The notes beneath the pieces were generated by a model. The model made no database searches. It saw nothing but the letters and a program-made list of their open reading frames with translations, and was not told the origin of the DNA. A DNA stretch of 64,000 nucleotides, taken from NCBI GenBank assembly GCA_903831455.1, contig CAIKXV010000296.1, positions 3,363 through 67,362 of the forward strand, read 5' to 3'. Source of the stretch: an uncultured Pseudomonadota bacterium (GTDB lineage: Bacteria; Pseudomonadota; Gammaproteobacteria; Burkholderiales; CAIKXV01). The translations under genes were made by a program, and so were the position numbers. Shown here piece after piece: positions 2 to 46,026 of the stretch. Numbering within the stretch: the stretch's first letter is position 1; each line of letters opens with the position of its first letter.

Positions 2-3233
<3,232 letters not shown>

Positions 3234-15844: not shown

Positions 15845-17866
15845 ATGCCCACCCGAACCGAACTTGCCAATGCCCTCCGCGTCCTGGCGATGGACGCCGT
15901 GCAGAAAGCCAACTCCGGCCATCCGGGTATGCCGATGGGCATGGCCGACATCGCCGAAGTGCTGTGGCGCGACCACCTGCGCCACGATCCGGCCGACCCG
16001 CGCTGGCCGGACCGCGATCGCTTCGTGCTGTCGAACGGCCATGGGTCGATGCTGCTCTACGCGCTGCTGCACCTGACCGGCTACGACCTGCCGATGTCCG
16101 AGCTGCAGGCCTTCCGCCAGTTGCACTCGCGTACGCCTGGCCACCCCGAGTTCGGCGCCACGCCCGGCGTCGAGACCACGACCGGGCCGCTGGGGCAGGG
16201 CCTGGCCAACGCGGTGGGCATGGCCCTGGCCGAGGCGCTGCTGGCCGCCGAGTTCAATCGTCCCGGGCACACGATCGTCGACCACCGCACCTGGGTGTTC
16301 GCGGGCGACGGGTGCCTGATGGAGGGCATCTCGCACGAAGCGTGCTCGCTGGCCGGCACCCTCGGGCTGGGCAAGCTGGTCGTCTTCTACGACGACAACG
16401 GCATCTCGATCGACGGGGCGGTCGAGGGCTGGTTCACCGACGACACGCCGGCCCGGTTCGAGGCCTATGGCTGGCGGGTCATCCGGGGAGTCGACGGCCA
16501 TGATCCGCAGGCGCTTTCGGCGGCCATCGCCGAGGCGACGCGGCAGCAGGACCGTCCGGTGCTGGTCTGCTGCCGCACCGTGATCGGCAAGGGTGCGCCG
16601 AACAAGCAGGGTAGTGCCGATACGCACGGAGCGGCGCTGGGCGAGGCCGAGGTCGCGGCCACCCGCGCGGCGCTGGGCTGGACCGCCCCGCCCTTCGAGA
16701 TCCCGGAGGCGGTGCGGGCGGCGTGGGAGGGACGGACCGCGGGTGCGCGGAGACGTACCCGCTGGCAGGAGGCCTACGACGCCTACGCGGCCGCCCACCC
16801 CGGGCTGGCCGCCGAGTTCACCCGCCGCATGTCGGGCCGACTGCCCGCCGATTTCGCGCAGCGGTGCGCCGGCATCCTGCAGGCCGCGCAGGACAAGGCC
16901 GAGGCGGTCGCCACGCGCAAGGCGTCGCAGAACGCGCTCAACCAGCTGGCCCCGATGCTGCCCGAGCTGGTCGGCGGTTCGGCCGACCTGATGGGCAGCG
17001 TGTTCACCGACTGGAAGGGCAGCCGCGTGGTGGCGCGCGACGACACCGGCGCCCTGCGCGGCAACATCGTGAACTTCGGGGTTCGCGAGTTCGCGATGGC
17101 CGCCATCACCAACGGCGTTGCGCTGCACGGCGGCCTGATCCCGGAGACCGGCACCTTCCTCACCTTCTCCGACTACTCGCGCAACGCGCTGCGCATGGCG
17201 GCGATGATGAAGCTGCGCAACGTGTTCGTGTTCACGCACGACTCCATCGGGCTGGGCGAGGACGGACCCACCCACCAGCCGGTCGAGCACGTGTCCGCGC
17301 TGCGCCTGATCCCGAACCTGGACGTCTGGCGGCCCTGCGATGCCGCCGAAACCGTCGGCGCATGGGCCTCGGCGCTCGTGCGCGAGGACGGCCCCTCCGT
17401 GCTGGCGCTGTCTCGGCAGGCGCTGCCCGCGCAGGCCCGCACGGCGGCGCAGGTCGCCGGGATCGGTCGGGGCGGCTACGTCCTGGCCGACGCGCAAGCC
17501 CCCGCACCGGCCGTCGTCCTGATCGCCACCGGATCGGAGGTCGCGCTGGCGATGCAGGCGCGCGAGTTGCTGGCGAAGGACGGTATCGCCGCACGGGTGG
17601 TGTCGATGCCCAGCGCGGGGGTGTTCGACCGCCAGGATCCCGCGTGGCGCCGCTCGGTGCTGCCGCCCGGCGTGCCGCGGGTGGCGATTGAGGCGGGGGC
17701 CACCGGCTTCTGGCATCGCTACACCGGTGCCCTGGATGACCCGCGCGGTGCGGTGCTGGGGCTGGATCGCTTCGGTGAATCGGCCCCGGCGGGCGTGGTG
17801 ATGCGCCACTTCGGATTCACCGCCGAGTCGGTGGCGTCCCTCGCCCGGCAGGTACTGGCCGGCTGA
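15845..17866 (+). CDS. tkt: transketolase
   Basis: Internal ATG at 15845 of track ORF 14621..17866. Motifs [54 protein letters not shown]. Confidence 0.95.
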
Positions 17867-18060
17867 CGCGTGCCCTGCCGCCCGGCGTCATCGGGCAAGT
17901 GCACGCGTTGCGGTAGACTTGCGCCCTTCCGGGGCGGTTCGAGCCGCCCTGCCCCCGGGGTCCGGCCCGGCCGCCCGAGCGCGTGCCGGCTCGCCCGCCG
18001 CGACCCCGCCTTTTTCCACGCGGCCCCGCGGGGCCGCCCGCAGAGATCCCGGAGGACTCC

Positions 18061-19074
18061 ATGGCGATTCGCGTAGGCATCAACGGGTACGGCCGCATCG
18101 GACGCAACATCCTGCGTGCGCTCTATGAATCCGGTCGCACCGGCGAGATCCAGGTCGCCGCGATCAACGACCTCGGCGATGCCCAGACCAACGCGCACCT
18201 GACCCGCCACGACACCGCGCACGGCCGTTTCCCGGGCAAGGTGGAAGTCGATGGCGACAGCATGGTGGTCAACGGCGACCGGATCCGCGTGTTCGCGGTG
18301 CGCAACCCCGCGGAAATCGCCTGGGGTTCGGTCGGGGTCGACGTGGTGCTCGAGTGCACCGGCCTGTTCACCACGAAGGAGAAGGCGGGTGCGCACCTCA
18401 AGGGCGGCGCGAAGAAGGTCGTGATCTCGGCCCCCGGGGGCAAGGACGTCGATGCCACCGTGGTCTACGGCGTGAACCACGGGGTCCTCAAGGCCAGCGA
18501 CACCGTGATCTCCAACGCGTCCTGCACGACCAACTGCCTCGCGCCGCTGGTCAAGGTGCTGCACGAGAAGGTGGGCGTGGTGAACGGCCTGATGACCACC
18601 GTGCACTCGTACACCAACGACCAGGTGCTCACCGACGTCTACCACGAGGACCTGCGGCGCGCGCGGTCGGCCACGCAATCGATGATTCCCACCAAGACCG
18701 GTGCCGCGGCCGCGGTCGGACTGGTGCTGCCCGAGCTCAACGGGCGCCTGGACGGTTTCGCGATCCGCGTGCCCACGATCAACGTGTCGGTGGTCGACCT
18801 GTCCTTCGTCTCCGCGCGGGCGACCAGCGTCGAGGAAGTGAATGCCATCATGAAGGAGGCGGCCAGCCGCCCCGAGTGGCAGGGCGTGCTCGGCTACAAC
18901 GACGCGCCGCTGGTGTCGATCGACTTCAACCACGACTCGCGCTCGAGCGTGTTCGACTCCACCCTCACCAAGGTGTCGGGCAACCTGGTCAAGGTGTCGT
19001 CGTGGTACGACAACGAGTGGGGTTTCTCCAACCGCATGCTGGACACCACGCTGGCCCTGATGGCGGCGAAGTGA
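18061..19074 (+). CDS. gap: glyceraldehyde-3-phosphate dehydrogenase (type I)
   Basis: ATG at 18061 preceded by [16 protein letters not shown], active site [23 protein letters not shown]. Confidence 0.95.
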
Positions 19075-19105
19075 CCGGATCGGGTACTCGGGCGGGGCAG
19101 GCACG

Positions 19106-20293
19106 ATGAACATCCGGCGCATGCAGGACCTGGATCTTTCCGGCAAGCGGGTGTTCATCCGCGCCGATCTCAATGTCCCCCAGGACGACTCGGGCGCCAT
19201 CACCGATGACACCCGCATCCGTGCGTCGGTGCCCGGCATCGAACTGGCGCTTGCCGCCGGCGCCCGGGTGATGGTCACCTCGCACCTCGGCCGACCGAAG
19301 GAGGGTGAACTGCGCCCCGAGGATTCGCTCGCGCCGGTGGCACGGCGGCTCTCGGAACTGCTCGGCCGACCGGTGCCGCTGGTGCGCGACTGGGTCGATG
19401 CCGCCGAAGTCGCACCCTCCCCGGGTTCGGTGGTGCTGCTGGAGAACTGCCGCTGCAACCGGGGCGAGAAGAAGGACGACGAGGCGCTGTCGCGCCGGAT
19501 GGCCGCGTTGTGCGACGTGTACGTGAACGATGCCTTCGGCACCGCGCATCGCGCCGAGGCCACCACGCACGGCATCGCCCGCTTCGCGCCCGTGGCCTGC
19601 GCCGGCCCGCTGATGGCCGCGGAGGTCGAGGCGCTGACCCGCGCGCTCGCGCAGCCGCGGCGTCCACTGGTGGCGATCGTCGCCGGCTCGAAGGTCTCGA
19701 CCAAGCTCACCATCCTCAAGTCGCTCGCCTCGCGCGTCGATCGGCTGATCGTGGGTGGCGGCATCGCCAACACGTTCATGCTGGCACGCGGGCTGCCGAT
19801 CGGCCGCTCGCTGGCCGAACCGGACCTGCTCGAGGAGGCGCGCTCGGTGATGGCCGAACTCGCCGCGAAGGGAGGCGAGGTGCCGATCCCGGTCGACGTC
19901 GTGGTCGCGCCGGCCTTCGCCGCCGATGCGCCGGCCACCGTCAAGGCCGCGAACGCGGTGGCGGCCGGGGACATGATCCTGGACATCGGTCCGAAGACCG
20001 CGGCGACACTGGCCGACCTGCTGCGCGGCGCCGGCACGATCGTCTGGAACGGTCCGGTCGGCGTGTTCGAGTTCGATGCGTTCTCCGGCGGCACGCGTGC
20101 GATCGCCGAGGCCGTGGCCGAGTCCTCCGCGTTCTCGATCGCCGGCGGCGGCGACACGATCGCGGCCATCAACCGCTTCGGCGTTGCCGATCGCGTCGAC
20201 TACATCTCCACCGCCGGCGGTGCCTTCCTGGAATTCCTGGAGGGCAAGGAACTGCCGGCACTCGCGGCGCTGCAGGCGCGCGCGGCGGCCTGA
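19106..20293 (+). CDS. pgk: phosphoglycerate kinase
   Basis: 395-aa [30 protein letters not shown] motifs. Confidence 0.95.
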
Positions 20294-20316
20294 GCGGCGC
20301 GCGCACGGGGGAATCG

Positions 20317-21753
20317 ATGAATCGCCGAACGAAGATCGTCTGCACGCTGGGTCCGGCCACCAACGACCCGAAGGTGCTCGCGCGCATGATCGACGCCGGC
20401 ATGGACGTCGTGCGCATCAACTTCTCCCACGGCACGGCCGAGGAACACGCGCGGCGGGTCGAGACCATCCGCTCGCTCGCCCGCGCGGCGGGCCGCACCA
20501 TCGGCGTGCTGATGGACCTGCAGGGCCCGAAGATCCGGATCGGCAAGTTCGAAGCCGGCAAGACCGTGCTCAAGCCCGGGGCACGGTTCGTCCTCGATGC
20601 CCGCTGCAAGCTCGGCAACGACGAGCGCGTCGGGCTCGACTACCCGAACCTGCCCCGCGACGTGCGGGCGGGCGACACGCTGCTGCTGAACGACGGCCTG
20701 ATCGTGCTCACCGTGGCCGAGGTCAAGGGCCAGCAGATCGTCACGGTGGTCGACCAGGGTGGCGTGCTCTCGAACAACAAGGGCATCAACCGCAAGGGCG
20801 GAGGACTCACCGCCCCGGCACTGACCGAAAAGGACATGGAGGACATCCGGATCGCCGCCGAACTCAAGGCGGACTATCTCGGGGTTTCCTTCCCGCGGTC
20901 GGGCCAGGACATCGAGTGGGCGCGCAGCCTCCTGCACAAGGCCGGCGGTCGCGCGCTCATCTGCTCGAAGATCGAACGCGCGGAGGCCATCGCCTCGCTC
21001 GAGGAGATCGTCGAGGCCTCCGACGTCATCATGGTCGCGCGCGGCGACCTCGCGGTCGAGGTCGGCGACGCGGTGATCCCGGCGCTGCAGAAGCGCATGA
21101 TCCGGCTCGCCCGTGCGCGCAACAAGGCGGTGATCACCGCCACGCAGATGATGGAGTCGATGATCTCCTCGCCGATTCCCACGCGCGCCGAGGTGTCCGA
21201 CGTGGCCAACGCGGTCCTCGACGGCACCGACGCCGTGATGACCTCGGCGGAGACGGCGGCCGGCCAGTATCCGGTCGAGACCGTCGAGGCGATGGCCCGG
21301 GTCTGCATCGAGGCCGAGAAGGCGGACCTCGCCTCGTATGGCGAGCGGCGCGCTGCCGAGGAGTCGAGCCGCGACGTCGAGGGGGCGATCGGTCGGGCGG
21401 TGATGTCCACGGCCAACTACCTGCCGATCCGCGCGATCGCGGCGCTGACCCAGAGCGGGCGCACCGCGCTGCTGATGTCGCGCAACGATTCGCCGGTGCC
21501 CATCTACGCGCTCACGCCGCTGGTGGAGACGCGCCGGCGCGTGACCGTATTCCGCGGCGTGCATCCGGTGAACTTCACCGTGAAGTCGAAGGATCCGGAG
21601 GAGACGCTCAACGCCGCCGAGGACGAGCTGCTGCGGCGGGGCGCGGTGCAGAACGGCGACCTCATCGTGATGACGATCGGCGAGCCCTTCGGCAAGGCGG
21701 GCGGAACCAACACCATGAAGATCGTCCGCGTGGGCGAACATCGAAAGCCCTGA
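20317..21753 (+). CDS. pyk: pyruvate kinase
   Basis: Internal ATG at 20317. TKIVCTLGPAT, MDVVRINFSHG, MVARGDLAVE motifs. Confidence 0.93.
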   Translation: MNRRTKIVCTLGPATNDPKVLARMIDAGMDVVRINFSHGTAEEHARRVETIRSLARAAGRTIGVLMDLQGPKIRIGKFEAGKTVLKPGARFVLDARCKLGNDERVGLDYPNLPRDVRAGDTLLLNDGLIVLTVAEVKGQQIVTVVDQGGVLSNNKGINRKGGGLTAPALTEKDMEDIRIAAELKADYLGVSFPRSGQDIEWARSLLHKAGGRALICSKIERAEAIASLEEIVEASDVIMVARGDLAVEVGDAVIPALQKRMIRLARARNKAVITATQMMESMISSPIPTRAEVSDVANAVLDGTDAVMTSAETAAGQYPVETVEAMARVCIEAEKADLASYGERRAAEESSRDVEGAIGRAVMSTANYLPIRAIAALTQSGRTALLMSRNDSPVPIYALTPLVETRRRVTVFRGVHPVNFTVKSKDPEETLNAAEDELLRRGAVQNGDLIVMTIGEPFGKAGGTNTMKIVRVGEHRKP

Positions 21754-21827
21754 GCACGAGCAGACCCTTCGCGCCTGTCTCTCGATCGGCGCGGCACTGG
21801 ACCGAAGGACCAACCGGGAGACCCGAG

Positions 21828-22856
21828 ATGGACAGCAAACTGATGGCCGCGACCGCCGCGGCGATGGTGGCCAGCGGCAAGGGCCTGCTGGCGGCCGACG
21901 AGAGCAGCGCGACCGTGGCCAAGCGCTTTGCCGGCGTGAACGTCGAGAACACGGAGGCCAACCGGCGCACGTACCGCGACCTCCTCTTCACGACGCCGGG
22001 CATCGGCTCGCATATCAGCGGCGTGATCCTGTTCGACGAGACGATCCGCCAGTCCTCGCTGGCGGGCAAGCCCTTCCCGGCGCTGCTCGAATCCCAGGGC
22101 ATCATTCCCGGCATCAAGGTCGACGGCGGCGCCAAGGATTACGCCGGCCATCCGGGCGAACAGGTCACCGAGGGACTGGACGGCCTGCGCGGCCGGCTCG
22201 CCGAGTACTTCAAGCTCGGTGCGCGCTTCGCCAAGTGGCGCGCGGTGATCAACGTCGGCCGCGACATCCCGTCCTCGGGTTGCATCGAGGCCAACGCCCA
22301 CGCGCTCGCGCGCTACTCGGCCCTGTGCCAGGAGGCGAGCATCGTCCCGATCATCGAGCCCGAGGTGCTGATCGACGGCGACCACACGATCGAGCGCTGC
22401 CACGAGGTGAGCGAGGCGGTGTTGCGCGCGACCTTCCAGGCCTGCTATGGCCAGCGGGTCTCCGCCGAGCACCTGATCCTGAAGGCCAGCATGGTGATCT
22501 CGGGCAAGTCCTGCGCGACGCAGGCCCCCGAGGAGCAGGTGGCCGACATGACCGTCGAATGCCTGAAGCGCGCCGTGCCGGCGGCGCTACCCGGCGTGGT
22601 CTTCCTGTCCGGCGGCCAGAGCGACGAGAAGGCGGCGGCGCACCTGTCGCTGATGAACTCGCGGCACGCCGGTCGACTGCCCTGGCCGCTGACCTTCTCC
22701 TACTCGCGCGCCCTGCATCAGGCCGCACTCAAGGCCTGGAGCGGTCGCGAGGGCAACGTCCAGGCGGCGCAGGGCGTGTTCGCGCATCGCGCGCGCATGT
22801 GCAGCCTCGCCTCGCAGGGGCGCTACACCGCGGTCGAGGAGCGCACGGCGGGCTGA
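21828..22856 (+). CDS. fba: fructose-bisphosphate aldolase, class I (Schiff-base type)
   Basis: Internal ATG at 21828. GKGLLAADESSATVAKRF, ISGVILFDETIRQ, ILKASMVISG (Schiff-base Lys context), VVFLSGGQS. Confidence 0.9.
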   Translation: MDSKLMAATAAAMVASGKGLLAADESSATVAKRFAGVNVENTEANRRTYRDLLFTTPGIGSHISGVILFDETIRQSSLAGKPFPALLESQGIIPGIKVDGGAKDYAGHPGEQVTEGLDGLRGRLAEYFKLGARFAKWRAVINVGRDIPSSGCIEANAHALARYSALCQEASIVPIIEPEVLIDGDHTIERCHEVSEAVLRATFQACYGQRVSAEHLILKASMVISGKSCATQAPEEQVADMTVECLKRAVPAALPGVVFLSGGQSDEKAAAHLSLMNSRHAGRLPWPLTFSYSRALHQAALKAWSGREGNVQAAQGVFAHRARMCSLASQGRYTAVEERTAG

Positions 22857-23681: not shown

Positions 23682-24209
23682 TCAGGCGGTGAGTTGCTTG
23701 ACCAGCACGTCGAGGTGGCCGAGCGTGACGGCGCGCATCTCATCGGCACCGAGGTTGCTGATGGGATGCGGCAGCTCGATGTAGGGATGGCCCGGCATGC
23801 CGCGCGACCTGAACTGGAACACGCAGGCATTGCGGAACGCCTGGGTGATGATCACGGTGGCGGGGATGCCGCGACGTTCGAACTCCACGGTGTCGTGCAC
23901 ACTGCACAACGTGCACGACCCTCATCCACCGACGGCGGCCACCGCCAGATGCGCCTCCTGGGCGAGCTCGTCGATCAGCTGATCGGTGGCGGGCTTCGAG
24001 TAGTGTTCCTTGCTGCGGATGATCACCCGGGCCACGCCGTGGCGCTCCTTCAGCGCCGCGGCGATCGTCTCGAGGATCAGCGTGCCCTGCTCCTTGGTGT
24101 TGTCCACCATGGCCACGACCCTGCCGGCAAGGTCCATGGGTCGGGGCGCAAGGGGTATGGCCGGGCGGTTGCCTCCGGCAGACGGATCGATGAAGGGCAA
24201 GGGTTGCAT
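23682..24209 (-). CDS. UGSC-motif (seleno)protein candidate, 175 codons, with in-frame TGA (Sec) at 23922..23924
   Basis: ATG at 24209 preceded by AAGGAGG. Minus-strand reading is continuous across the TGA: ...AVAAVGG-U-GSCTLCSVHDTVEF... The track splits it into 23922..24500 and 23682..23909. The downstream piece has only a TTG start and no RBS. A stable hairpin follows the TGA directly. Confidence 0.7.
23892..23919 (-). promoter_or_regulatory. SECIS-like RNA hairpin immediately 3' of the in-frame UGA
   Basis: Minus strand UGA-GG-GUCGUGCAC-(GUUGUGCAGU)-GUGCACGAC. Perfect 9-bp stem with a 10-nt G/U-containing loop. The stem can extend by G-C pairs across a bulged A. Confidence 0.6.
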
Positions 24210-24237
24210 CGGCGGTCCTCCTTGGAAGTCGGATGGA

Positions 24238-25263
24238 TCAGGCGCGGGGTACGCGATAGCGTCCATGGACCGCACGGCTGCCGCCGCTCCAGCCATGGCA
24301 GATCGCGGTGCAGGGGCCCCAGCCGCCGGCCACCACCAGCAGCAGGTCGTCGGGATGCTTGATCGCCGGCACGAAGCAGCCATCGTCGTCGGGGTCGACG
24401 GCGATCGGCAGCGCCAGCGCCCGCTCGCGTCGCCAGTTGCCGCCGCGCCGAAGGTCCCCGACCGTGCGTCCGGCGCGTTCGACCAGCCACCGGTGGACAT
24501 CGGTGCGGCTCATGCCCGCCTCGGCGCAGAGCGTCGCGTGCTGCGGACCCATCGCGACCACCATGTCCGACCGCGCGTGCATGTTCCATGACCCCAGCGC
24601 CGCCATCCCGTCGGCGATGCCGGTGAGCAGGCGTTCGGGATCCTGGCTCACGTCGTCGAAGTGCAGTCGCGGAGATTCGACCATCGCGCATGCGATCGTG
24701 TCCTCGTCGACGCGATGGCCCTGCGCGACGGCGAGCGTCTCCCAGGGGCTGCGCTCGACGTTCTCGGTGATGCAGGCCGTATAGCGCAGGGGCGAGCCGA
24801 AGATCGTGGCCGAGGCGACACCGGCCATGCCGCCGCCGAGGTTGAGCAGGATCAGCCGGATCGCGCGCCCGATCGACGCGTTGGCCCGGAAGCCGGGGCC
24901 GAAGCAGCCATTGCCGCCGTTCAGTCCGACGCGCGCGGCGTGCGGCCCGTTGACGATCATCAGCGGCGCGACGCCATGCATGGTGCCCTGGACGCCGTTG
25001 AGATTGAACGGTTCGAGCAGCATGAGGTCGAGCGCGGCGATGACGACCGGCAGGTGGTCGGGCCGGCAGCCGGCCATCAGCGCGTGCAGCGCGACGTCAC
25101 GCACGGTGGCGACGTTCATGGCCGGGGGTACCGCGCCGATCACGTCCTCGGGCAGGCGCCCCGCGGCCGCCAGCATCGGGGCGAGCCGGGCTTCGGTGGG
25201 CGTGACGACCGGCAATCCGTCCGACCACGGTTTTTCCAGAAAGAACTCGAACTCGTCGATCAT
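24238..25263 (-). CDS. uncharacterised protein, tandem paralog A (341 aa)
   Basis: ATG at 25263 preceded by AAGGAG. High GC3 coding signal. Conserved blocks WSDGLPVVTPT, AVPPAMNVATVRDVALHA, NLNGVQGTMHGVAPLMIVNGP, GPGFRANA.IGRAIRL, VVAGGWGP. I recognise no family. Confidence 0.8.
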   Translation of the reverse strand: MIDEFEFFLEKPWSDGLPVVTPTEARLAPMLAAAGRLPEDVIGAVPPAMNVATVRDVALHALMAGCRPDHLPVVIAALDLMLLEPFNLNGVQGTMHGVAPLMIVNGPHAARVGLNGGNGCFGPGFRANASIGRAIRLILLNLGGGMAGVASATIFGSPLRYTACITENVERSPWETLAVAQGHRVDEDTIACAMVESPRLHFDDVSQDPERLLTGIADGMAALGSWNMHARSDMVVAMGPQHATLCAEAGMSRTDVHRWLVERAGRTVGDLRRGGNWRRERALALPIAVDPDDDGCFVPAIKHPDDLLLVVAGGWGPCTAICHGWSGGSRAVHGRYRVPRA

Positions 25264-25282
25264 GCCCGGCCCCGCTCCTTTC

Positions 25283-26314
25283 TCAATCGACCCGGTAGCG
25301 GCCATGCACCGCACGGCTGCCACCGCCCCAGCCGTGCGCCACGGCGCTGACCGGCCCCCAGCCACCAGCGACGATCAGGTGGAGGTCCTGCGGGTCCTTG
25401 ATGACCGGCACGAACGCGTCGTTGCATGCCGGATCGACGCCGATGCGTCGCGCCCGCTCGTCGCGCCAGTTGCCGCCGCGGCGCAGGTCGCCCGCGGTCC
25501 GGCCCGCCTGCCGCACCAGCCATTCGTGCACGCGAGCGCGGTCCCAGCCGGCGCGTGCGCAGATCGTCGCCTGCTCGGGCCCCAGCACCACCACCATGTC
25601 CGAGCGCACGTGCATGTTCCAGCTGCTCATCGCAGCCATCGAGTCGGCGATGCCGGTGAGCAGGCGCTCGGGACCCTGGCTGACGTCGTCGTAGCAGAGA
25701 CGGGGCGCCTCGACCATCGCGCAGGTGATCACGTCCTCGTCGACGCCGTAGCCGCGCGAGACCGCGAGCGTCTCCCACGGGCTGCGCTCGATGTTCTCGG
25801 TCCAGCAGGCGGTGTAGCGCAGCGGCGAGGACAGCACCGTGGCCGAGGCGAGGCCGGGGATACCGCCGCCCAGGTTGAGCAGCAGCAGCCGGATCGCGCG
25901 GCCGATGGTGGCGTTGGCCCGGAAGCCCGGTCCCAGGCAGCCGTTGCCGCCATGCAGTCCGATGCGCGTCGCGTAGGGGCCGTTGACGATCATCAGCGGT
26001 GCGACGCCGTGCATGGTGCCCTGCACGCCGTTGAGGTTGAACGGTTCGCGCAGCATCAGTGCGAGGCCGCCCAGCACCACCGGCAGATACTCGGGCAGGC
26101 AGCCGGCCATCACCGCGTGCAGCGCCACGTCGCGCACGGTGGCGACGTTCATGGCCGGGGGAACCGCGCCGATCACCTCCGTCGGGTCGCGGCTCGTCCC
26201 GTGCAGCATCCAGTCGAGCCGCTCCTGCGTCGGCGTCACGACCGGCAGGCCGTCGCTCCACTCCTTCGCGAAGAAGAACTCGAACGGATCGAGTCCGTCC
26301 CCGGCGTCGGTCAT
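25283..26314 (-). CDS. uncharacterised protein, tandem paralog B (343 aa)
   Basis: ATG at 26314 forms an ATGA overlap with the stop of the upstream Bug gene. Colinear with paralog A over its full length. It occupies the lower third of spurious track ORF 25283..28033. Confidence 0.8.
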   Translation of the reverse strand: MTDAGDGLDPFEFFFAKEWSDGLPVVTPTQERLDWMLHGTSRDPTEVIGAVPPAMNVATVRDVALHAVMAGCLPEYLPVVLGGLALMLREPFNLNGVQGTMHGVAPLMIVNGPYATRIGLHGGNGCLGPGFRANATIGRAIRLLLLNLGGGIPGLASATVLSSPLRYTACWTENIERSPWETLAVSRGYGVDEDVITCAMVEAPRLCYDDVSQGPERLLTGIADSMAAMSSWNMHVRSDMVVVLGPEQATICARAGWDRARVHEWLVRQAGRTAGDLRRGGNWRDERARRIGVDPACNDAFVPVIKDPQDLHLIVAGGWGPVSAVAHGWGGGSRAVHGRYRVD

Positions 26315-27294
26315 TCGGCCTTGATCCCCGCGGCCTTCACCACGCGCGTGTAGCGTCCGATCTCGCCCTCGATGAACTTGCGGAAGTCGGCGGGTGAGTT
26401 GGCGAACGGCTCGGTGCCGAGCTTGACCAGGGCGGCCTGGTTCTTCGGATCGCCCACGGCGCGGGCGATCTCCTTCGCCAGGCGCTCGACGATCTCGCGC
26501 GGGGTGCCGGCCGGGGCGAGGAGCCCGTACCACTGCGTGACCTGGAAGTCCTTCAGAAGCTCCGCGATCGCAGGCACCTCGGGGATGGTGCGCTTGAGGC
26601 CGGTGGTGGCGATGATGCGCATCTTGCCTGCCTTGGCGAAGGGCACCACGGCCGGGCCGGTGCCGTAGAGCATGGTGGCCTCGCCCGAGAGCACCGCCAC
26701 CGCGGCCGGACCGTTGCCCTTGTAGGGCACGTGCAGGATGTTCACGCCCCCGAGCAGGTTGAGCAGCTCGCCCGCGAGGTGGGGCCCGCCCAGCAGGCCG
26801 CTGGAGGCGAACGAGAGTTCGCCGGGGCGTTTCTTCGCCAGCGCGATCAGGTCCTTGAGCGAGCGCACCGGCAGCGACGGATGCACCGTCAGGATGTAGT
26901 CCGAGGTGGCGGCGAGGCTGATCGGCGCGAGATCGCGCAGAGGATCGTAGGGGAGCTTCGGGTTGGCCGCCGGCAGGATGGCGATCGGGGCGACGTTGCC
27001 CAGCACCAGCGTGTGGCCGTCCGCGGGCGCCTTGGTGGCGAGTTCGGTTCCGATCTGGCCGCTGGCCCCGGGACGGGTGTCGATGACCAGCGGCTGGCCG
27101 AGCTGTTCGCCCAGTGCCTGCGCGACGATCCGACCGACCGCGTCGGTACCGCCCCCGGGCGGATAGGGAGAAATCATCCGGATCGGCTTGGCCGGCCATG
27201 CCGCCTGTGCGCTCGCGACGGCGGGCAGGGCGAGCAGGGCCGCGGCGGCGAGTCCGCTTGCGGCGAGCAACGGATTGCGGTTCATGGGGTTCAT
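26311..27294 (-). CDS. Bug-family (TctC-like) tripartite tricarboxylate transporter substrate-binding protein
   Basis: 327-aa ORF. Signal peptide ending ASAQAAWP. Typical Bug blocks PIRMISPYPPGGGTD..GR, V.N.PGA.G and HVPYKG. Confidence 0.85.
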   Translation of the reverse strand: MNPMNRNPLLAASGLAAAALLALPAVASAQAAWPAKPIRMISPYPPGGGTDAVGRIVAQALGEQLGQPLVIDTRPGASGQIGTELATKAPADGHTLVLGNVAPIAILPAANPKLPYDPLRDLAPISLAATSDYILTVHPSLPVRSLKDLIALAKKRPGELSFASSGLLGGPHLAGELLNLLGGVNILHVPYKGNGPAAVAVLSGEATMLYGTGPAVVPFAKAGKMRIIATTGLKRTIPEVPAIAELLKDFQVTQWYGLLAPAGTPREIVERLAKEIARAVGDPKNQAALVKLGTEPFANSPADFRKFIEGEIGRYTRVVKAAGIKAE

Positions 27295-27411: not shown

Positions 27412-28083
27412 TCAGCCCTCGACGTGGTTGGCCGGATCGGCGCTGAATCGCTGGAAGGCAGGGCGCTGGACGATCCGGGAATACCAGCGCTCGATGTTCG
27501 GGAAGGACGGGCGCACCGGCTCGAGCAGTACCCAGCGGTGCACGCGGATGCCGATCGGGATGTCGCCGAAACTGAACGCCTCGCCGGCCATGTAGGCGGT
27601 ACGCGCGAGCTGGTCCTCGACGATCCGCAGCTTGCGCGCGAATGCGTCGCGCGCGGCGGCGAGCGTCGACGGATTGCGCTGCTCCAGCGGCAGCCGGACC
27701 CGCTCCATCACCATGTCGTGCTGGGGCGGCAGCAGTTCGTTGTTCTCGAAATCCTGCCAGCGCGACGCCGAGGCGAAGGTGCGCAGATCGTCGCCGTAGA
27801 GGGCCTGCGGCGCGTAGCGCATGGCGAGATAGCGGCAGATCGCGTTCGACTCCCAGAGCACGAAGCCCTCGTCGTCGATGGTCGGGATGCGTCCGTTCGG
27901 GTTGAGTGCCCGGTACTCGGGCGTGTCGACGACACCGAACGGGCGATTGCCCTTCGCGACATGGCCCCCGGGCCCCATCACCGCGCTGGCCGGGATGAGT
28001 TCGAAGTCCACCCCGCACTCGGCGAGTGTCCACAGCACCTTCTGCGTACGGTTGGAGGTAAGCCTGCCCCAGAGCTTCAGCAT
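27412..28083 (-). CDS. glutathione S-transferase family protein
   Basis: ATG at 28083 (MLKLWGRLTSNRTQKVLW...). N-terminal thioredoxin-like GST fold with RIPTIDDEGFVLWESNAICRYL, plus a helical C-terminal domain. Confidence 0.8.
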   Translation of the reverse strand: MLKLWGRLTSNRTQKVLWTLAECGVDFELIPASAVMGPGGHVAKGNRPFGVVDTPEYRALNPNGRIPTIDDEGFVLWESNAICRYLAMRYAPQALYGDDLRTFASASRWQDFENNELLPPQHDMVMERVRLPLEQRNPSTLAAARDAFARKLRIVEDQLARTAYMAGEAFSFGDIPIGIRVHRWVLLEPVRPSFPNIERWYSRIVQRPAFQRFSADPANHVEG

Positions 28084-28117: not shown

Positions 28118-29062
28118 TCAGGCGACCGTGCGGCCGTGCGCGACCACGGCCGCGGCGACCCGTTGCGCGTCGGCGATGGCATCGCCGAGGCGCCCGCCAT
28201 ACCCGCTTCGCACCGCGCCCACGGCAAACACGCCGGCGCGGGTGGTTGCGCCGCTGGCGTCGGTGAGGATCGCCCCCGCGCTATCGGTCGGCAGTCCGGC
28301 CCAGCCCGACCGCGGTTCGAGTCCGATGCAGGGGAACACCGCATCGACGGCCAGCGTGCGTCGGGTGCCGTCGGAACCCTGCAGCACGATCGCCTGCAGC
28401 GTCTGCGCGCCCTCGATGCCGACGACCTGATGCTCCGGGTGCAGCGCGTAGCGGTCGGGACTGTCGATCCGCGCGCGGTCGAAAAGGGTGCGCAGCCGCG
28501 CCCGCGCGCGGGGCTCTCGACCCCGCAGCACCAGATGCACGCGGCTTGCATGGCGCGCGAGCACCATCGCCTCCTGCAGTGCGCTGTCACCACCGCCCAC
28601 GACGGCGACCTCGCGGCCGCCGAGCAACGGCGCGTCGCAGTCGGCACACCACGACAGGCCGCGCCCCTCGAAGCGATCGAGACCGGCGATCGGCAGTCGG
28701 CGGCGCGCGGCTCCGGTCGCAACGATCACGCAGCGTGCGGCATGGACGGCCTCGGGGGTGGCGACCTCCCATCCCTCCCGGAGGGACCGGAGCGACACCG
28801 CCGCCTCAGGCAGGCGCACGACGCCGGCGTCCATCGCCTCGCTGGCGAGCAGCGTCGCGACATCGATGCCCGAGCCCTCGAGGTCGGCGCCCTCGAGGTC
28901 GGTGCCGGCGTCGACGAGTTCGTTCACGCTGGCGACCAGGCCGCCGTACAACTCCGGCTCCAGGGACAGCACGGAGAGCCCCGCGCGCGCGCAGGCGAGC
29001 GCAGCGGCCAGCCCGGCGATACCCTCGCCGGCGACGATCACATCATGCTGCTCCATGGACAT
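28118..29062 (-). CDS. thioredoxin-reductase-like FAD/NAD(P)-dependent disulfide oxidoreductase
   Basis: ATG at 29062 preceded by GGAG. DVIVAGEGIAGLAAA (FAD GxGxxG), redox CxxC in SWCADCDAP (compare TrxB CATCD), VAVVGGGDSALQEA (NAD(P)H site), GVFAVGAV. Confidence 0.8.
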   Translation of the reverse strand: MSMEQHDVIVAGEGIAGLAAALACARAGLSVLSLEPELYGGLVASVNELVDAGTDLEGADLEGSGIDVATLLASEAMDAGVVRLPEAAVSLRSLREGWEVATPEAVHAARCVIVATGAARRRLPIAGLDRFEGRGLSWCADCDAPLLGGREVAVVGGGDSALQEAMVLARHASRVHLVLRGREPRARARLRTLFDRARIDSPDRYALHPEHQVVGIEGAQTLQAIVLQGSDGTRRTLAVDAVFPCIGLEPRSGWAGLPTDSAGAILTDASGATTRAGVFAVGAVRSGYGGRLGDAIADAQRVAAAVVAHGRTVA

Positions 29063-29070: not shown

Positions 29071-30030
29071 CTACCCGTGAACGCGATGGGGCACCGGCTC
29101 CCCGGCGAAATGCGCACGCAGGCTCTCGAGCCAGCAGGCTTGCCGGTGGGCCCGGATCTCGCGGGTCGATGAACCGAGGTGCGGCACGAGCATCACCTGC
29201 TCCATCGCGCGCAGCGCGGCCGGAACCCGCGGCTCGTCGGCGAACACTTCCAGCCCGGCGCCGGCGATGCGGCCCCGCGCGAGCGCGTCGATCAGCGCCG
29301 GCTCGTCCACCACCGCCCCGCGGCTCACGTTGACCAGGTACCCCGAGGGCCCCAGCGCCTCCAGCACCCGCGCGTCGATCATGCCGCGCGTCTGCGCCGT
29401 CGACGCGCAGGCGACGACCAGGCAATCGGCGCGGGTCGCGAGATCGAGCAGCCGGGGGACGTAGGTGCCCGGGGCGTCCGGCTTGTCGCGCGGCCCGTGC
29501 CATTCGATCCGAAGGCCGAAGGCCGCCGCGCGGCGCGCCACCGCGCGGCCGATGGCGCCCATGCCGACGATGCCGCAGGTCTTCCCCCGCAGGTCGGTGG
29601 ACAGCGCGAAGGGTCCGGCCTCCCAGCGGCCTTCGCGCACGAAGCGATCGGCTTCGCACAGGCGGCGCAGGGTTCCCAGCAGCAGGCCCAGCGCGACGTC
29701 GGCGACCGCCTCCTCCGTCCAGTCGGGCGTGTTGGTGACCACGATGCTTCGCGCCTGCGCCGCGGCGAGATCCAGCGTGCCATGGCTCTGTCCGAAGCAG
29801 GCGATGATCTCGAGCGCGGGCAGGTCGTGCAGGTCATCGGCGCGGAACCCGCGCACGCCGGTGGTCACCAGCCCGCGTACACGTCGCAGCGTGGAGGGGT
29901 CGGCCGTCGCGGCGCCGCAGCCAGGCCAGCGGCGGTGGACCGTGTACTCGTGGGCGAGCGCGGCGAGGGCGGGCGCATGGATGGGCGCGATCGCCAGCAG
30001 TGCGGGGGACGGCGGGGCGTCCACGCTCAT
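29071..30030 (-). CDS. D-isomer-specific 2-hydroxyacid dehydrogenase family protein
   Basis: ATG at 30030 forms an ATGA overlap with the upstream stop. GIVGMGAIGRAVARR (NAD GxGxxG), LVNVSRGAVVDE, AGLEVFADEP, PHLGSST. Confidence 0.8.
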   Translation of the reverse strand: MSVDAPPSPALLAIAPIHAPALAALAHEYTVHRRWPGCGAATADPSTLRRVRGLVTTGVRGFRADDLHDLPALEIIACFGQSHGTLDLAAAQARSIVVTNTPDWTEEAVADVALGLLLGTLRRLCEADRFVREGRWEAGPFALSTDLRGKTCGIVGMGAIGRAVARRAAAFGLRIEWHGPRDKPDAPGTYVPRLLDLATRADCLVVACASTAQTRGMIDARVLEALGPSGYLVNVSRGAVVDEPALIDALARGRIAGAGLEVFADEPRVPAALRAMEQVMLVPHLGSSTREIRAHRQACWLESLRAHFAGEPVPHRVHG

Positions 30031-31040
30031 CGGCCAAGGGGTTCGCGCAACAGCGCCATCGCGTTGCCGCCGAGGATGCGGTCGCGGTCGCTCGCGGACA
30101 GACCGTCCACCGCGGCAAGGCGGCCGAGCGGGTCGGTCTCGGCCATGTCGAAGGGCGCATCGGTGCCGATCATCACGCGATCGGCACCGACCCTGTCGAT
30201 CAGGAAGGCGAGCGATCGGCTGTCGTGGGTGAGCGAGTCGAAGTGAAAGCGACGCAGCTGCGACTCGGGCGAGTGGGCGGTATGCGCGCGCGCCTCGGGG
30301 CGCACGCGGTAGCCGTGGTCGAGGCGGCCGTACTGGTAGGGCAGGTGGCCGCCGCCGTGTGCGAGGATCATGTCCAGACCGGGCAGGCGGTCGAGCGTGC
30401 CGCCGAGCATCAGGTGCACGGCCATCAGCGCGGTGTCGAACGGCAGCCCGTGCGTGTTTCCGAGGTAGTAGGCGCACAGGTCGGTGGGCAGCTGGCCTGC
30501 GATGTAGGGGTGCGCGAACACGCTGACCTTCAGTTCGGCGGCACGCCGGAGCACCGGCTCGAAGCGTGCATCGGAGAGCAGCGTGCCCTTCACGCGGCAG
30601 CCCAGTTCCACCGAGCGGAACCCCAGGTCGCGCACGATCCGCTCGAGCTCGGCGATGGCCGCGTCGGCGTCCTGCATCGGCAGCGTGCCCATGCCGCGCA
30701 GGCGCGCGGGGGCCGCGTCGACCATCCGGGCGATGCCGTCGTTGAGCAGGCTCGCGGCGGCGATGCCGTCGTGGCCGTCCAGCCAGTAGAAGAACACCAC
30801 CGGGGTGACCGAGATCACCGAGATGTCGATGCCCTTGCGATCCATCGACTCGAGCTTGGCCTCGACGTCGAAGAACTCCGGGTGCAGCGGCGACCCGTGG
30901 CCGTCGTCGCGCACCAGCGCGATGTCGTTGCCCTCGCCCCGCACCGACATGCCGTAGGCCCGCGGCTGGGCGCGGATGGCCTCGACCATGTTGCGCGGGA
31001 GCACGTGGCTGTGCACGTCGATCACGGGGGTGCGGCTCAT
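30027..31040 (-). CDS. amidohydrolase_2 (ACMSD-like) family metal-dependent hydrolase/decarboxylase
   Basis: 337-aa ORF. VIDVHSHVLP metal site, FAHP, ILAHGGG, MIGTDAPFD. Confidence 0.8.
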   Translation of the reverse strand: MSRTPVIDVHSHVLPRNMVEAIRAQPRAYGMSVRGEGNDIALVRDDGHGSPLHPEFFDVEAKLESMDRKGIDISVISVTPVVFFYWLDGHDGIAAASLLNDGIARMVDAAPARLRGMGTLPMQDADAAIAELERIVRDLGFRSVELGCRVKGTLLSDARFEPVLRRAAELKVSVFAHPYIAGQLPTDLCAYYLGNTHGLPFDTALMAVHLMLGGTLDRLPGLDMILAHGGGHLPYQYGRLDHGYRVRPEARAHTAHSPESQLRRFHFDSLTHDSRSLAFLIDRVGADRVMIGTDAPFDMAETDPLGRLAAVDGLSASDRDRILGGNAMALLREPLGR

Positions 31041-31084
31041 CGAGGTCGTTCTCCGGGTGCGGCGGCGCGCTGTCTGTCCGCGGG

Positions 31085-32095
31085 CTATTCGGGCTTGATG
31101 CCGGCGTCCTTGATCACCCGCGCGAACCGGTTGGCTTCGCTGCGGATGAAGCGCCCGAACTCCTCCGGCGTGCTGGTGAGCGGCTCGACGCCGGCGGAGG
31201 CAAAGCGCGGCTTCATGTCGGCGGCGGTCACGGCCTTCGCGAGTTCGGTGTTGAGCCGGGCGATGATCTCCCGCGGCGTGCCGGTCGGCGCGAGCATGCC
31301 GTACCAGACGCTGATCTCGAAGTTGGGGAAGCCCTGCTCGCGGGTGCTGGGAACGTCCGGAAGGTCGGGGAAGCGCTGCGGCATCAGCACGGCCAGCGCG
31401 CGAACGCGCCCGGCGTTGATCTGCTGCACGGCCGCCGGGGCCGCGACCACCAGCATGTCGATCTCGCCGCCCACCAGCGCCGAGAGCGCGACGCCGGAGC
31501 CCTTGTAGGGCACGTGCACGATGTCGAGTTTCTCCAGGCTCTTCAGGAGCTCGGGCGCCAGATGCGTGGTGGTGCCGATGCCGCCGGATCCGTAGTTGAG
31601 CCGACCGGGGGTGCGGCGGGCCAGCGCCACCAGTTCCTTCAGGTTGCGGGCGGGCACGGATGGGTGGACCACCAGCACGTTGCGCACCGCACCCACGAGC
31701 GCGATGGGCGCGAGGTCCTTGTACGGGTCGTAGTTGAGGCGGCTGTAGAGCAGCGGGCTCAGCGCGATCACCGGCGAGCTCAGCACGATCGTGTAGCCGT
31801 CCGGCGCCGATCGGGCCGCCGCCTCGAGGCCGACGTTGCCGCTGGCTCCCGGGCGTGACTCCACCACGATCGGCTGGCCGAGCTGCTCGGCGAGTCGCGC
31901 GGACACCAGCCGGCCGACGATGTCGGTCGGGCCCCCGGGCGGGAACGGCGAGATCATCCGCAACGGCCTCGACGGATACTGGGCCTGCGCGTGGGCCATG
32001 GATGCCGCGAGCGGCGCGACACCGAACGCGAGGGCGACGACCGCGGCTCGGGCCATGCGGCCGGTGGGCCGCGGTGCGAACGGATCTCGATGCAT
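31085..32095 (-). CDS. Bug-family (TctC-like) substrate-binding protein, second copy
   Basis: 336-aa ORF. Signal peptide ending AHAQAQYP. PLRMISPFPPGGPTD..GR, HVPYKGSG. Confidence 0.85.
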   Translation of the reverse strand: MHRDPFAPRPTGRMARAAVVALAFGVAPLAASMAHAQAQYPSRPLRMISPFPPGGPTDIVGRLVSARLAEQLGQPIVVESRPGASGNVGLEAAARSAPDGYTIVLSSPVIALSPLLYSRLNYDPYKDLAPIALVGAVRNVLVVHPSVPARNLKELVALARRTPGRLNYGSGGIGTTTHLAPELLKSLEKLDIVHVPYKGSGVALSALVGGEIDMLVVAAPAAVQQINAGRVRALAVLMPQRFPDLPDVPSTREQGFPNFEISVWYGMLAPTGTPREIIARLNTELAKAVTAADMKPRFASAGVEPLTSTPEEFGRFIRSEANRFARVIKDAGIKPE

Positions 32096-32174
32096 GATTC
32101 CTCCGGGCGATGGCGAGTCGACCGCTCCGCGGAGCCGGCGGCGGCCGGCGCCGGGGAGCGCGGCGGCGCCTGTT

Positions 32175-42876: not shown

Positions 42877-42908
42877 TGCTGCCGGTCTCCCTGCGAAATG
42901 GGTCGTCG

Positions 42909-43781: not shown

Positions 43782-44015
43782 ACCACCCCCGTTCCTCGCA
43801 CCGGCGCGGACACTGCACCCCGCCGGGGTCGAACACCCGCAACCGCGGGAACCCCTATCCGACGCAGTACGCGGTCCGGTACCGAGGCCCCGAGGGGCGG
43901 ATCGATCCGGACGTCTTGTTAGGGAGGCGGCAATGACCGAGCGACGTCGCCCGCAGGAAAGGAGGCCCCGTGCCGGACAGCCGAGGGAACCTCACCCACC
44001 CCTTCACGATACGCC

Positions 44016-44087: not shown

Positions 44088-44123
44088 TTAACTCAGGTTG
44101 ACAGTTCGGGGAGCGGGGTCTAG

Positions 44124-46016
<1,893 letters not shown>

Positions 46017-46026
46017 GAGTCCCCGC

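What the first reader, a model, noticed from the sequence alone, without database searches (positions are those of the whole stretch)
23682..24209. In-frame TGA fuses two called ORFs into one U-G-S-C-T-L-C selenoprotein candidate
The track splits this locus into 23922..24500(-) and 23682..23909(-). The second piece starts on TTG and has no RBS. Read on the minus strand, the frame is continuous: ...HLAVAAVGG-TGA-GSCTLCSVHDTVEFERRGIP... An ATG at 24209 preceded by AAGGAGG gives a 175-codon gene with the TGA as codon 96. Both halves show the same strong GC3 codon bias as neighbouring genes, so translation probably continues through the TGA. The resulting U-x-x-C-x-x-C string is a redox-type selenocysteine context. 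From memory, to be verified: UGSC is the name-giving motif of an NCBI protein-family model called 'UGSC family (seleno)protein'. Also from memory: UxxCxxC is the Sec motif of the substrate-specific B components of glycine, sarcosine and betaine reductases. Standard gene callers would report a truncated gene or a pseudogene here.
Basis: partly seen in the sequence, partly recalled or inferred. Interest (0 to 1): 0.8.

Follow-up and report, generated by a model that had tools for sequence, protein, structure and literature searches.

The report
Split UGSC selenoprotein gene, real recoding
The two short ORFs are one 175-codon gene of the known UGSC selenoprotein family, in which an in-frame TGA almost certainly encodes selenocysteine; the family is known, so this is mainly an annotation fix, but its conserved neighbours suggest what this uncharacterised family does.

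Summary
On the minus strand, ATG 24209 (RBS AAGGAGG at 24217-24223) to the stop at 23682 is one 175-codon frame with TGA as codon 96 (23922-23924).

With U replaced by C, the protein passes the curated cut-offs of NCBIfam NF041046 'UGSC family (seleno)protein' and Pfam PF24696.

All 85 copies found (window plus 83 loci, about 80 species) have TGA at this column and never TAA or TAG. The true stop varies among all three. The downstream ORF is 79 codons in nearly all copies and evolves like coding DNA.

Seven codons just after the TGA show no synonymous change in 81 sequences (0 of 63 comparable codons elsewhere; p = 8e-10). They form an 8-bp hairpin whose loop G23-U24 has the spacing of the E. 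coli fdhF SECIS.

In Cys-type homologs this column is the only invariant Cys.

The family has been known since 2007 and its function is unknown.

New context: an unannotated 341-aa protein family lies directly upstream in 58 of 67 copies. That family, and a TrxR-like flavoprotein, each occur fused to UGSC in other organisms. UGSC also resembles the Sec region of GrdB/PrdB.

The selA/B/C/D genes of the source genome could not be checked.

The parts
23682..24209 (-). UGSC-family selenoprotein gene: 175 codons with Sec (TGA) at codon 96, motif U96-G-S-C99-T-L-C102, terminal stop TGA at 23682-23684.
   Evidence: continuous frame. (NF041046 130.3 bits, cut-off 125; PF24696 161.9 bits). (orthologs start at the same Met).
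24217..24223 (-). Shine-Dalgarno AAGGAGG, 7 nt upstream of the ATG at 24209.
   Evidence: Read directly from the sequence.
23922..23924 (-). In-frame TGA, the proposed selenocysteine codon.
   Evidence: TGA in 85 of 85 copies, never TAA or TAG, while the true stops vary among TGA, TAA and TAG; the column aligns with the only invariant Cys of 54 Cys-type homologs.
23892..23910 (-). Proposed bacterial SECIS core: 8-bp hairpin GUUGUGCA-GUG-UGCACGAC at positions 15-33 counted from the U of UGA, with loop G23-U24-G25. It lies inside the nucleotide stretch 23892-23912 that is invariant at synonymous sites. In this window the lower stem could extend to 23919 in an alternative 10-bp fold.
   Evidence: 7 of 7 codons use a single codon, against 0 of 63 elsewhere; Fisher p = 8e-10. 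RNAalifold consensus; the hairpin keeps its register in paralogs, with GC>AU and CG>GC double changes; the alternative MFE fold.
24238..25263 (-). Conserved partner gene 'unk341' (341 aa), an uncharacterised family with no Pfam or NCBIfam model. It stops 28 nt before the UGSC start codon.
   Evidence: no family hit. (2212 homologs; every source name given is 'hypothetical protein'). (directly upstream of UGSC in 58 of 67 copies). (fused to a UGSC domain in P0350, P0279, P0287).
25283..26314 (-). Tandem paralog of the partner gene (343 aa, 74% identical to unk341).
   Evidence: a tandem second copy is present in 31 loci.
26311..27285 (-). TctC/Bug-family periplasmic solute-binding protein of a tripartite tricarboxylate transporter; part of the conserved cassette.
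   Evidence: PF03401, E 3.4e-61. (conserved position).
27412..28083 (-). Glutathione S-transferase-like gene, conserved upstream of the cassette in several clades.
   Evidence: GST_N/GST_C. (present in 18 loci, 59-100% identity)..
28118..29056 (-). Thioredoxin-reductase-like flavoprotein (Pyr_redox_2) with a C-A-D-C redox motif; a candidate reductant for UGSC.
   Evidence: Pfam. (conserved in the closest clade, L005-L014). (P0369 is a UGSC + TrxR-like fusion; 32% identity, E 6e-23, CxxC aligned).

Best explanation
What it is: one gene, 24209 to 23682 on the minus strand, encoding a 175-residue member of the UGSC selenoprotein family. UGA at codon 96 is decoded as selenocysteine. Decoding is directed by a SelB-type SECIS hairpin 12 to 30 nt downstream, embedded in the codons for T-L-C-S-V-H-D. 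Standard gene callers stop at the UGA and report two fragments.

How it probably works (inferred, about 0.4 confidence): the protein is a small flavodoxin-like alpha/beta domain. Sec96 sits at the N-terminus of a helix and forms a U-x-x-C selenenylsulfide redox pair with Cys99. It is a stand-alone relative of the Sec-bearing region of the substrate-specific 'protein B' selenoproteins (GrdB, GrdF, GrdH, PrdB). It acts as the redox-active subunit of an enzyme whose larger subunit or subunits are the two unannotated 341/343-aa proteins encoded immediately upstream. The substrate would be a carboxylate delivered by the adjacent TctC-type binding protein. Sec would be re-reduced by the neighbouring TrxR-like flavoprotein and/or the GST-like protein.
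For: Shown:
- The frame is continuous, with an RBS and a start codon shared with orthologs.
- The joined protein passes the curated cut-offs of NF041046 and PF24696.
- 85 of 85 copies from about 80 species have TGA at this column, while the terminal stops vary among TGA, TAA and TAG. The downstream ORF is 79 codons in 82 of 85 copies; two are cut by a contig end and one has 81.
- Differences from the window sequence downstream of the TGA are distributed 1380/929/2735 over codon positions 1/2/3. Amino-acid identity downstream is 76%, higher than upstream.
- Synonymous sites are frozen in codons +4 to +10 only: 7 of 7 against 0 of 63, p = 8e-10.
- Those codons fold into an 8-bp hairpin with G23-U24 in the loop. 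The register is kept in two divergent paralogs with compensatory changes.
- The U column is the only invariant Cys in 54 Cys-type homologs.
- The closest database relatives are all fragments truncated at this position.

Supporting the mechanism:
- The window protein and 18 of 54 family members independently hit the GrdB model around its Sec region. Others hit GrdF, GrdH or PrdB.
- The AF2 model of a Cys homolog (pLDDT 93) is a five-unit beta-alpha fold with the Cys at a helix N-terminus.
- unk341 lies directly upstream in 58 of 67 copies. It stays adjacent even for paralogs of 31-34% identity in which the gene order is reversed.
- Fusion proteins exist of UGSC with unk341 and of UGSC with a TrxR-like domain.
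- The GST-TctC-unk-unk-UGSC cassette recurs in other clades.
Against: - No selA, selB, selD or tRNA-Sec is present in the 64-kb window or in about 1 Mb of related loci. Sec decoding capacity of this genome is therefore inferred, not shown.
- No Rfam SECIS model matches.
- With only 8 distinct sequences the covariation test for the hairpin is not significant: 45 of 500 shuffles reach the observed pairing. A second, mutually exclusive 10-bp fold is more stable in the window sequence itself.
- The similarity to GrdB is local, about 80 residues, and far below the family cut-off (19.9 against 602 bits).
- unk341 has no detectable similarity to GrdE or PrdA, nor to any Pfam, NCBIfam or PDB entry. 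Its role is pure inference from context.
- The TrxR-like gene is conserved only in the closest clade.
- The structural model is of a Cys homolog that is 44% identical over the C-terminal half, not of the window protein itself.
Confidence: 0.85

Rival explanations
1. The TGA is a genuine stop. The locus is a pseudogene, or two separate small genes, and the downstream 79 codons are not translated as part of the same protein.
For: Every public gene caller reports two pieces. A TTG start can be found for the second piece.
Against: The TGA is kept in 85 of 85 copies and is never TAA or TAG. The downstream ORF is 79 codons in nearly all copies and shows a coding pattern of substitutions. The downstream piece has no RBS, and its putative TTG start lies inside the frozen SECIS stretch. 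Both pieces map to consecutive halves of one HMM. Full-length Cys homologs have Cys at this column.
Confidence: 0.02
2. The gene is a UGSC selenoprotein gene by descent, but this organism lacks or has lost the Sec machinery. In this genome the UGA then terminates, giving a 95-residue fragment, or is read through only at a trace level.
For: No sel genes or tRNA-Sec are in the window. Their presence elsewhere in the genome could not be tested.
Against: The SECIS stretch, the TGA and the downstream ORF are intact and identical in three independent assemblies of this organism. The whole clade of about 80 species keeps them under selection, which would decay quickly without Sec decoding. Lineages that abandon Sec normally switch the codon to Cys, as the distant homologs have done.
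Confidence: 0.06
3. The UGA is recoded, but to a standard amino acid rather than Sec: Trp or Cys by near-cognate readthrough, or a reassigned genetic code.
For: Nothing specific. Readthrough alone would also explain the coding constraint downstream of the UGA.
Against: The same gene and its neighbours use TGA as a normal stop, so the code is not reassigned. A frozen hairpin at fdhF-like spacing is the signature of SelB-dependent decoding. The column is Cys in non-TGA homologs, the classic Sec/Cys pair. The family is an established selenoprotein family (PMC1976440, PMC2398784).
Confidence: 0.03

Closest known systems
UGSC family (seleno)protein (NCBIfam NF041046, Pfam PF24696); the 'UGSC-containing protein' of Zhang & Gladyshev 2007/2008
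   Same: Full-length HMM match above both curated cut-offs. U-G-S-C motif. Sec/Cys pair at the defining column. Size of about 175 aa. More frequent in non-marine and freshwater samples, as the GOS study reported. Function unknown in the literature.
   Different: Nothing that excludes membership. This Burkholderiales subclade has an invariant extended motif GG-U-GSCTLCSVHD with a third Cys, whereas distant paralogs have U-G-S-S or C-G-T-S. The published guess of a thioredoxin-like fold is not borne out by the AF2 model, which is flavodoxin-like.
Selenoprotein B of glycine, sarcosine, betaine and D-proline reductases (GrdB, GrdF, GrdH, PrdB; TIGR01917, TIGR01918, NF040794, NF040795, TIGR04483)
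   Same: A U-x-x-C(-x-x-C) Sec motif. Local HMM similarity of residues 71-154 to GrdB positions 321-399, reproduced by 18 of 54 family members. Both work, or are proposed to work, with a separately encoded partner subunit and a thiol/NAD(P)H reductant (PrdA/PrdB mechanism, PMC11229817).
   Different: Only about 80 residues align, and the score is far below the cut-off (19.9 against 602 bits). The protein is 175 aa, against 431 for GrdB and about 242 for PrdB. There is no GrdE/PrdA-type pyruvoyl proprotein and no GrdA, GrdC or PrdC nearby. The partner is an unrelated, unannotated family. The host is an aerobic phototrophic betaproteobacterium, not a Stickland-fermenting anaerobe.
E. coli fdhF bacterial SECIS (SelB-binding hairpin). 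The comparison sequence was recalled from memory.
   Same: A hairpin immediately 3' of UGA inside the coding sequence. The apical loop carries G23-U24 counted from the U of UGA. The upper stem UGCA/UGCA is identical.
   Different: The stem is 8 uninterrupted base pairs with a U17-G31 wobble in place of the bulged U. The loop is a GUG triloop rather than GGUC. No Rfam model matches. SelB binding has not been tested.

Membership tests
UGSC family (seleno)protein (NF041046 / PF24696) | Whole-protein HMM score at or above the curated cut-off | tested here: met
   NF041046 130.3 bits against 125, covering 29-173 of the protein and 2-146 of the 147-position model. PF24696 161.9 bits against 25 (U replaced by C).
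UGSC family (seleno)protein (NF041046 / PF24696) | U/C-G-S-C motif with Sec or Cys at the conserved column | tested here: met
   The motif is GG-U-GSCTLC. In 54 Cys-type homologs the column is the only invariant Cys, and G+1 and C+3 are at least 90% conserved.
Bacterial Sec-decoded (selenoprotein) gene | In-frame UGA conserved among orthologs, with protein-coding constraint continuing downstream | tested here: met
   85 of 85 copies have TGA. The downstream ORF is 79 codons in nearly all copies. Differences by codon position are 1380/929/2735.
Bacterial Sec-decoded (selenoprotein) gene | SECIS stem-loop directly downstream of UGA at SelB-compatible spacing | tested here: inconclusive
   An 8-bp hairpin with loop G23-U24 coincides exactly with 7 codons frozen at synonymous sites (p = 8e-10). 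Two paralogs keep the register with double changes. However, the covariation statistics are underpowered, an alternative fold exists, and no Rfam model matches.
Bacterial Sec-decoded (selenoprotein) gene | selA, selB, selC (tRNA-Sec) and selD present in the genome | not testable with these tools
   None is in the window or in 83 related loci.
Bacterial Sec-decoded (selenoprotein) gene | Selenium actually incorporated at the UGA position | not testable with these tools
   This needs 75Se labelling or mass spectrometry.
GrdB/GrdF/GrdH/PrdB reductase selenoprotein B | Full-length match to a family model above its cut-off | tested here: not met
   TIGR01917 19.9 bits against 602.2. TIGR01918 15.4 bits against 65.45. 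Only residues 71-154 align.
GrdB/GrdF/GrdH/PrdB reductase selenoprotein B | Companion genes of the reductase complex (GrdE/PrdA proprotein, GrdA, GrdC/PrdC) in the neighbourhood | tested here: not met
   The Pfam annotations of the cluster and of the whole window contain none of them. The adjacent 341/343-aa proteins match no family.
Thioredoxin-fold thiol/selenol oxidoreductases (the fold guessed for UGSC in PMC2398784) | Thioredoxin fold | tested here: not met
   The AF2 model of the Cys homolog P0268 (pLDDT 93.4) consists of five parallel beta-alpha units. The top Foldseek PDB hits are flavodoxin, lumazine synthase, REC and similar domains (TM 0.4-0.5), and no thioredoxin appears. The test was done on a homolog, not on the window protein.

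The most novel reading that the evidence does not exclude
The UGSC selenoprotein may not be a free-standing antioxidant. It may be the Sec-bearing redox subunit of a selenium-dependent enzyme that has not yet been described. Its catalytic or substrate-binding subunits would be the unannotated 341-aa family (more than 2000 members, no Pfam model, tandemly duplicated here). A TrxR-like flavoprotein and/or a GST would supply electrons, and a TctC-type binding protein would feed it a carboxylate. This would be an aerobic, betaproteobacterial functional analogue of the clostridial GrdB/GrdE and PrdB/PrdA reductases. Multiple Sec- and Cys-type paralogous modules per genome would then correspond to different substrates.
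Probability: 0.35. Interest if true: 0.65.

Novelty: new member of a known kind. Interest (0 to 1): 0.35.

Why it matters
For annotation, the gene should be called as one selenoprotein. In every public copy inspected here it is split into two 'hypothetical' fragments, so selenoproteome counts for freshwater Burkholderiales are too low.

For biology, UGSC is one of the most abundant selenoprotein families in aquatic metagenomes, and its function has been unknown since it was first reported in 2007. The conserved GST-TctC-unk-unk-UGSC cassette gives a concrete hypothesis to test. So do the fusions of UGSC with unk341 and with a TrxR-like domain, and the local homology to GrdB/PrdB. Tests could include co-expression, pull-downs, AlphaFold-Multimer, and knock-outs in a cultivable aerobic phototroph.

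The frozen 21-nt SECIS is also a ready-made search pattern for finding further copies.

Tried and rejected
I searched with the exact C-terminal 79 residues instead.
3. The apparent 468-aa in-frame extensions upstream of UGSC in L034 and L063, and the 354-361-aa ones in L004 and L014, looked like unk341-UGSC fusions. They are only stop-free out-of-frame readings of the upstream gene in GC-rich DNA, and the real start is the conserved Met. Rejected.
5. PDB sequence and profile searches for UGSC were empty.
6. Rfam gave no SECIS or other hit, at either the gathering threshold or a relaxed E-value.
7. The search for Sec machinery found nothing: no tRNA-Sec in the window or in 60 loci, and no SelD by tblastn with an E. 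coli SelD sequence recalled from memory. None of the window's larger ORFs scanned against Pfam matched a SelA, SelB or SelD family.
8. The supplementary figure of PMC2398784 showing the 'UGSC/Unknown_1' fusion is held only as an image. Whether Unknown_1 is the same as unk341 therefore stays unverified.
9. Covariation counts on 8 sequences favour the 8-bp hairpin over the 10-bp alternative (84% against 76% of cells paired; score 0.286 against 0.132). They are not statistically decisive.

Full report
**Observation.** On the minus strand the sequence reads AAGGAGG (24223-24217), then 7 nt, then ATG (24209). After 95 sense codons comes TGA (23924-23922), then 79 more sense codons and the stop TGA (23684-23682). 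The preceding gene ends at 24240-24238, only 28 nt before the ATG. Orthologs start at the same Met (M..LPFIDP...), so the long call from ATG 24500 merely reads the upstream gene's 3' end out of frame. A scan of all six frames found no other TGA in the 64-kb window flanked on both sides by at least 50 stop-free codons with gene-like GC3 and GC2.

**Family.** With U replaced by C, the 175-aa product scores 130.3 bits against NCBIfam NF041046 'UGSC family (seleno)protein' (equivalog, cut-off 125). It scores 161.9 bits against Pfam PF24696 'UGSC' (cut-off 25). The family is in the literature. [quoted passage not shown] PMC2398784 lists it among the most abundant selenoprotein families of the GOS metagenomes, with 255 Sec forms against 21 Cys forms, and more frequent in non-marine samples. 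A 2026 review still groups it with families whose functions are uncharacterised (PMC13188914).

**Is the TGA decoded?** A database search returned 769 homologs. The 120 best are almost all 96-aa proteins covering 53-54% of the query, which means gene callers truncated them at the same column. A scan of one genome per species gave 80 loci, mostly freshwater and soil Burkholderiales or Betaproteobacteria MAGs, in which tblastn aligns essentially the whole query (residues 1-6 to 173-175) at 62-91% identity. Three further loci come from independent assemblies of the window's own organism.

In all 85 copies the codon is TGA and never TAA or TAG, while the true terminator varies among TGA, TAA and TAG. 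The downstream ORF is 79 codons in 82 of 85 copies; two are cut by a contig end and one has 81. Differences from the window sequence downstream of the TGA fall 1380/929/2735 on codon positions 1/2/3, the same pattern as upstream (1162/757/2362). Amino-acid identity downstream is 76%, against 69% upstream. A search of 1.8 billion cluster representatives with the C-terminal 79 residues showed that all close relatives are fragments. The full-length relatives, at 47% identity or less, carry D-C-G-S-C at this position. In an alignment of 54 such full-length proteins that Cys is the only invariant Cys. This is the classical Sec/Cys signature.

**SECIS.** Across 81 distinct sequences, the seven codons +4 to +10 after the TGA (ACG TTG TGC AGT GTG CAC GAC) each use a single codon. 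This includes AGT for Ser and TTG for Leu in a 71% GC genome. None of the 63 other columns with a 90%-conserved degenerate amino acid is frozen in this way (Fisher p = 8e-10). RNAalifold places an 8-bp hairpin, GUUGUGCA-GUG-UGCACGAC, exactly on this stretch. It occupies window 23910-23892, which is positions 15-33 counted from the U of UGA.

The loop is G23-U24-G25, the same spacing as G23/U24 of the E. coli fdhF SECIS, and the upper stem UGCA/UGCA is the same as in fdhF. I recalled the fdhF sequence from memory. Two divergent paralogs in locus L065 keep a hairpin in the same register, with loops GUG and GUC. Their stems carry GC>AU and CG>GC double changes. With only 8 distinct sequences the covariation statistics are not significant. 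A mutually exclusive 10-bp fold is more stable in the window sequence itself, and no Rfam model matches. An RNA-level constraint is therefore shown, but the exact fold is inferred.

**What could not be shown.** The window contains no tRNA, and Pfam scans of its larger ORFs gave no SelA, SelB or SelD family. The 83 related loci also contain none. The rest of the genome is out of reach with these tools. Sec-decoding capacity is therefore inferred from the intact, selected TGA and SECIS, not demonstrated.

**Structure and relatives.** An AlphaFold2 model of a Cys-type homolog (P0268, pLDDT 93.4) has five parallel beta-alpha units, with the Sec-equivalent Cys at the N-terminus of helix 3. Foldseek finds only generic flavodoxin-like domains (TM 0.4-0.5) and no thioredoxin. 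The 2008 guess of a Trx-like fold is therefore not supported. The window protein hits the GrdB model TIGR01917 at E = 2.8e-4, aligning residues 71-154 to model positions 321-399. It also hits GrdH, GrdF and the PB subfamily model. Of the 54 Cys-type members scanned one by one, 18 hit GrdB (best E 2.6e-5), and others hit GrdF, GrdH or PrdB. UGSC thus looks like a stand-alone relative of the Sec-bearing region of the 'protein B' reductase selenoproteins, whose motif is UxxCxxC. It fails every full-length membership criterion for those families.

**Genomic context.** The genes on the window's minus strand run in this order: TrxR-like flavoprotein with C-A-D-C (28118-29056), GST (27412-28083), TctC (26311-27285), a 343-aa unknown (25283-26314), a 341-aa unknown (24238-25263), UGSC (23682-24209), and a cupin.

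The 341-aa family has no Pfam, NCBIfam or PDB relative, and Foldseek finds no significant structural match. It nevertheless has 2212 homologs, and every name the sources give them is 'hypothetical protein'. A member ends within 400 nt upstream of UGSC, on the same strand, in 58 of 67 copies that have enough flanking sequence. In 31 of these it is tandemly duplicated. Paralogs of UGSC at 31-34% identity, with motifs U-G-S-C, U-G-S-S or C-G-T-S, again sit next to a 341-family paralog and a TctC gene, but in the reverse gene order.

Fusion proteins exist in the databases. P0350, P0279 and P0287 are UGSC(Cys) plus a 341-family domain (35% identity to the window protein, E 2e-63). P0369 is UGSC(Cys) plus a TrxR-like domain that matches the window's flavoprotein, with the CxxC aligned (E 6e-23). 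The GST-TctC-unk-unk-UGSC cassette recurs in other clades.

**Proposed mechanism (inferred).** By analogy with PrdB/PrdA (PMC11229817), Sec96 with Cys99 would be the redox-active nucleophile of a two-component enzyme. The 341/343-aa proteins would bind the substrate, a carboxylate delivered by TctC. The selenenylsulfide would be re-reduced by the flavoprotein and/or the GST. I put this at about 0.35-0.4. That the locus is a Sec-encoding UGSC gene I put at about 0.85-0.9.

**Verdict.** The finding is real and correctly interpreted. It is a new member of a known selenoprotein family that is systematically mis-annotated, so it is ordinary as a discovery. The added value is the defined SECIS and a testable functional context for a family of unknown function.

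Noticed in passing
window 37700-63300: A photosynthesis gene cluster: bchF-like (44092-44721), bchN/B-type (45649-47637), Mg-chelatase H (47318-51457), bchL (51312-52412), bchM (52324-53142), two PucC/LhaA-like genes, reaction-centre H chain puhA (54630-55526), an AcsF-like rubrerythrin-fold protein (56830-57909), DUF3623 (57896-58789), crtI- and crtB-like genes, hemC and hemD. A PAS/HTH_8 protein and a B12-binding-domain protein (41446-43991) look like PpsR/AerR-type regulators. The host is therefore probably an aerobic anoxygenic phototrophic Burkholderiales with 71% GC.
   Followed up: partly
window 2-3230: The 3' end of dnaN and then gyrB lie at the start of the window, so the window probably sits next to the chromosomal replication origin.
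   Followed up: no
window 24238-26314: The partner gene is tandemly duplicated (341 and 343 aa, 74% identity). The whole family has no Pfam or NCBIfam model despite more than 2000 homologs. Several Cys and a GGNGCFGPGFRAN loop are invariant, but that loop is modelled with very low confidence (pLDDT below 50 at residues 114-135).
   Followed up: partly
L065 4241-5806 and 12040-13616; L068 847-2376 and 4940-6473; L075 3750-5271: Divergent UGSC-like genes (31-34% identity) are followed by a 341-family paralog and often a TctC gene. Four use TGA (motifs U-G-S-C or U-G-S-S) and one uses Cys (C-G-T-S). One genome can therefore carry several such modules, and the second Cys of 'UGSC' is not universal.
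   Followed up: partly
L057 984-3185; L079 3164-7352; L083 1234-5417: L057 has two complete unk341 + UGSC(Sec) modules within 3.8 kb. L079 and L083 have four consecutive 341-family paralogs a few kb upstream of UGSC.
   Followed up: no
window 29071-32639 (minus strand): A second block (cupin, TctC, Amidohydro_2, 2-hydroxyacid dehydrogenase) lies directly upstream of the cassette. Among the loci it is conserved only in L015, where it lies downstream of UGSC, so it is probably a separate catabolic unit rather than part of the UGSC system.
   Followed up: partly
window 15845-22856 (plus strand): A run of central-carbon genes lies convergent to the cupin gene: transketolase, GAPDH, phosphoglycerate kinase, pyruvate kinase and class I fructose-bisphosphate aldolase. 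This may be Calvin-cycle or gluconeogenesis related.
   Followed up: no
record titles of L007, L026, L034, L041, L042, L045, L047 and others: Several MAG records that carry this betaproteobacterial cassette are titled 'Bordetella parapertussis', 'uncultured Streptomycetaceae' or 'Nitrospinota'. These look like taxonomic mislabels or placeholders in the public records.
   Followed up: no
L016 7870-10516: In this MAG both the 341-family genes and the N-terminal part of UGSC are broken by extra stops or frameshifts. This looks like assembly error rather than biology.
   Followed up: no
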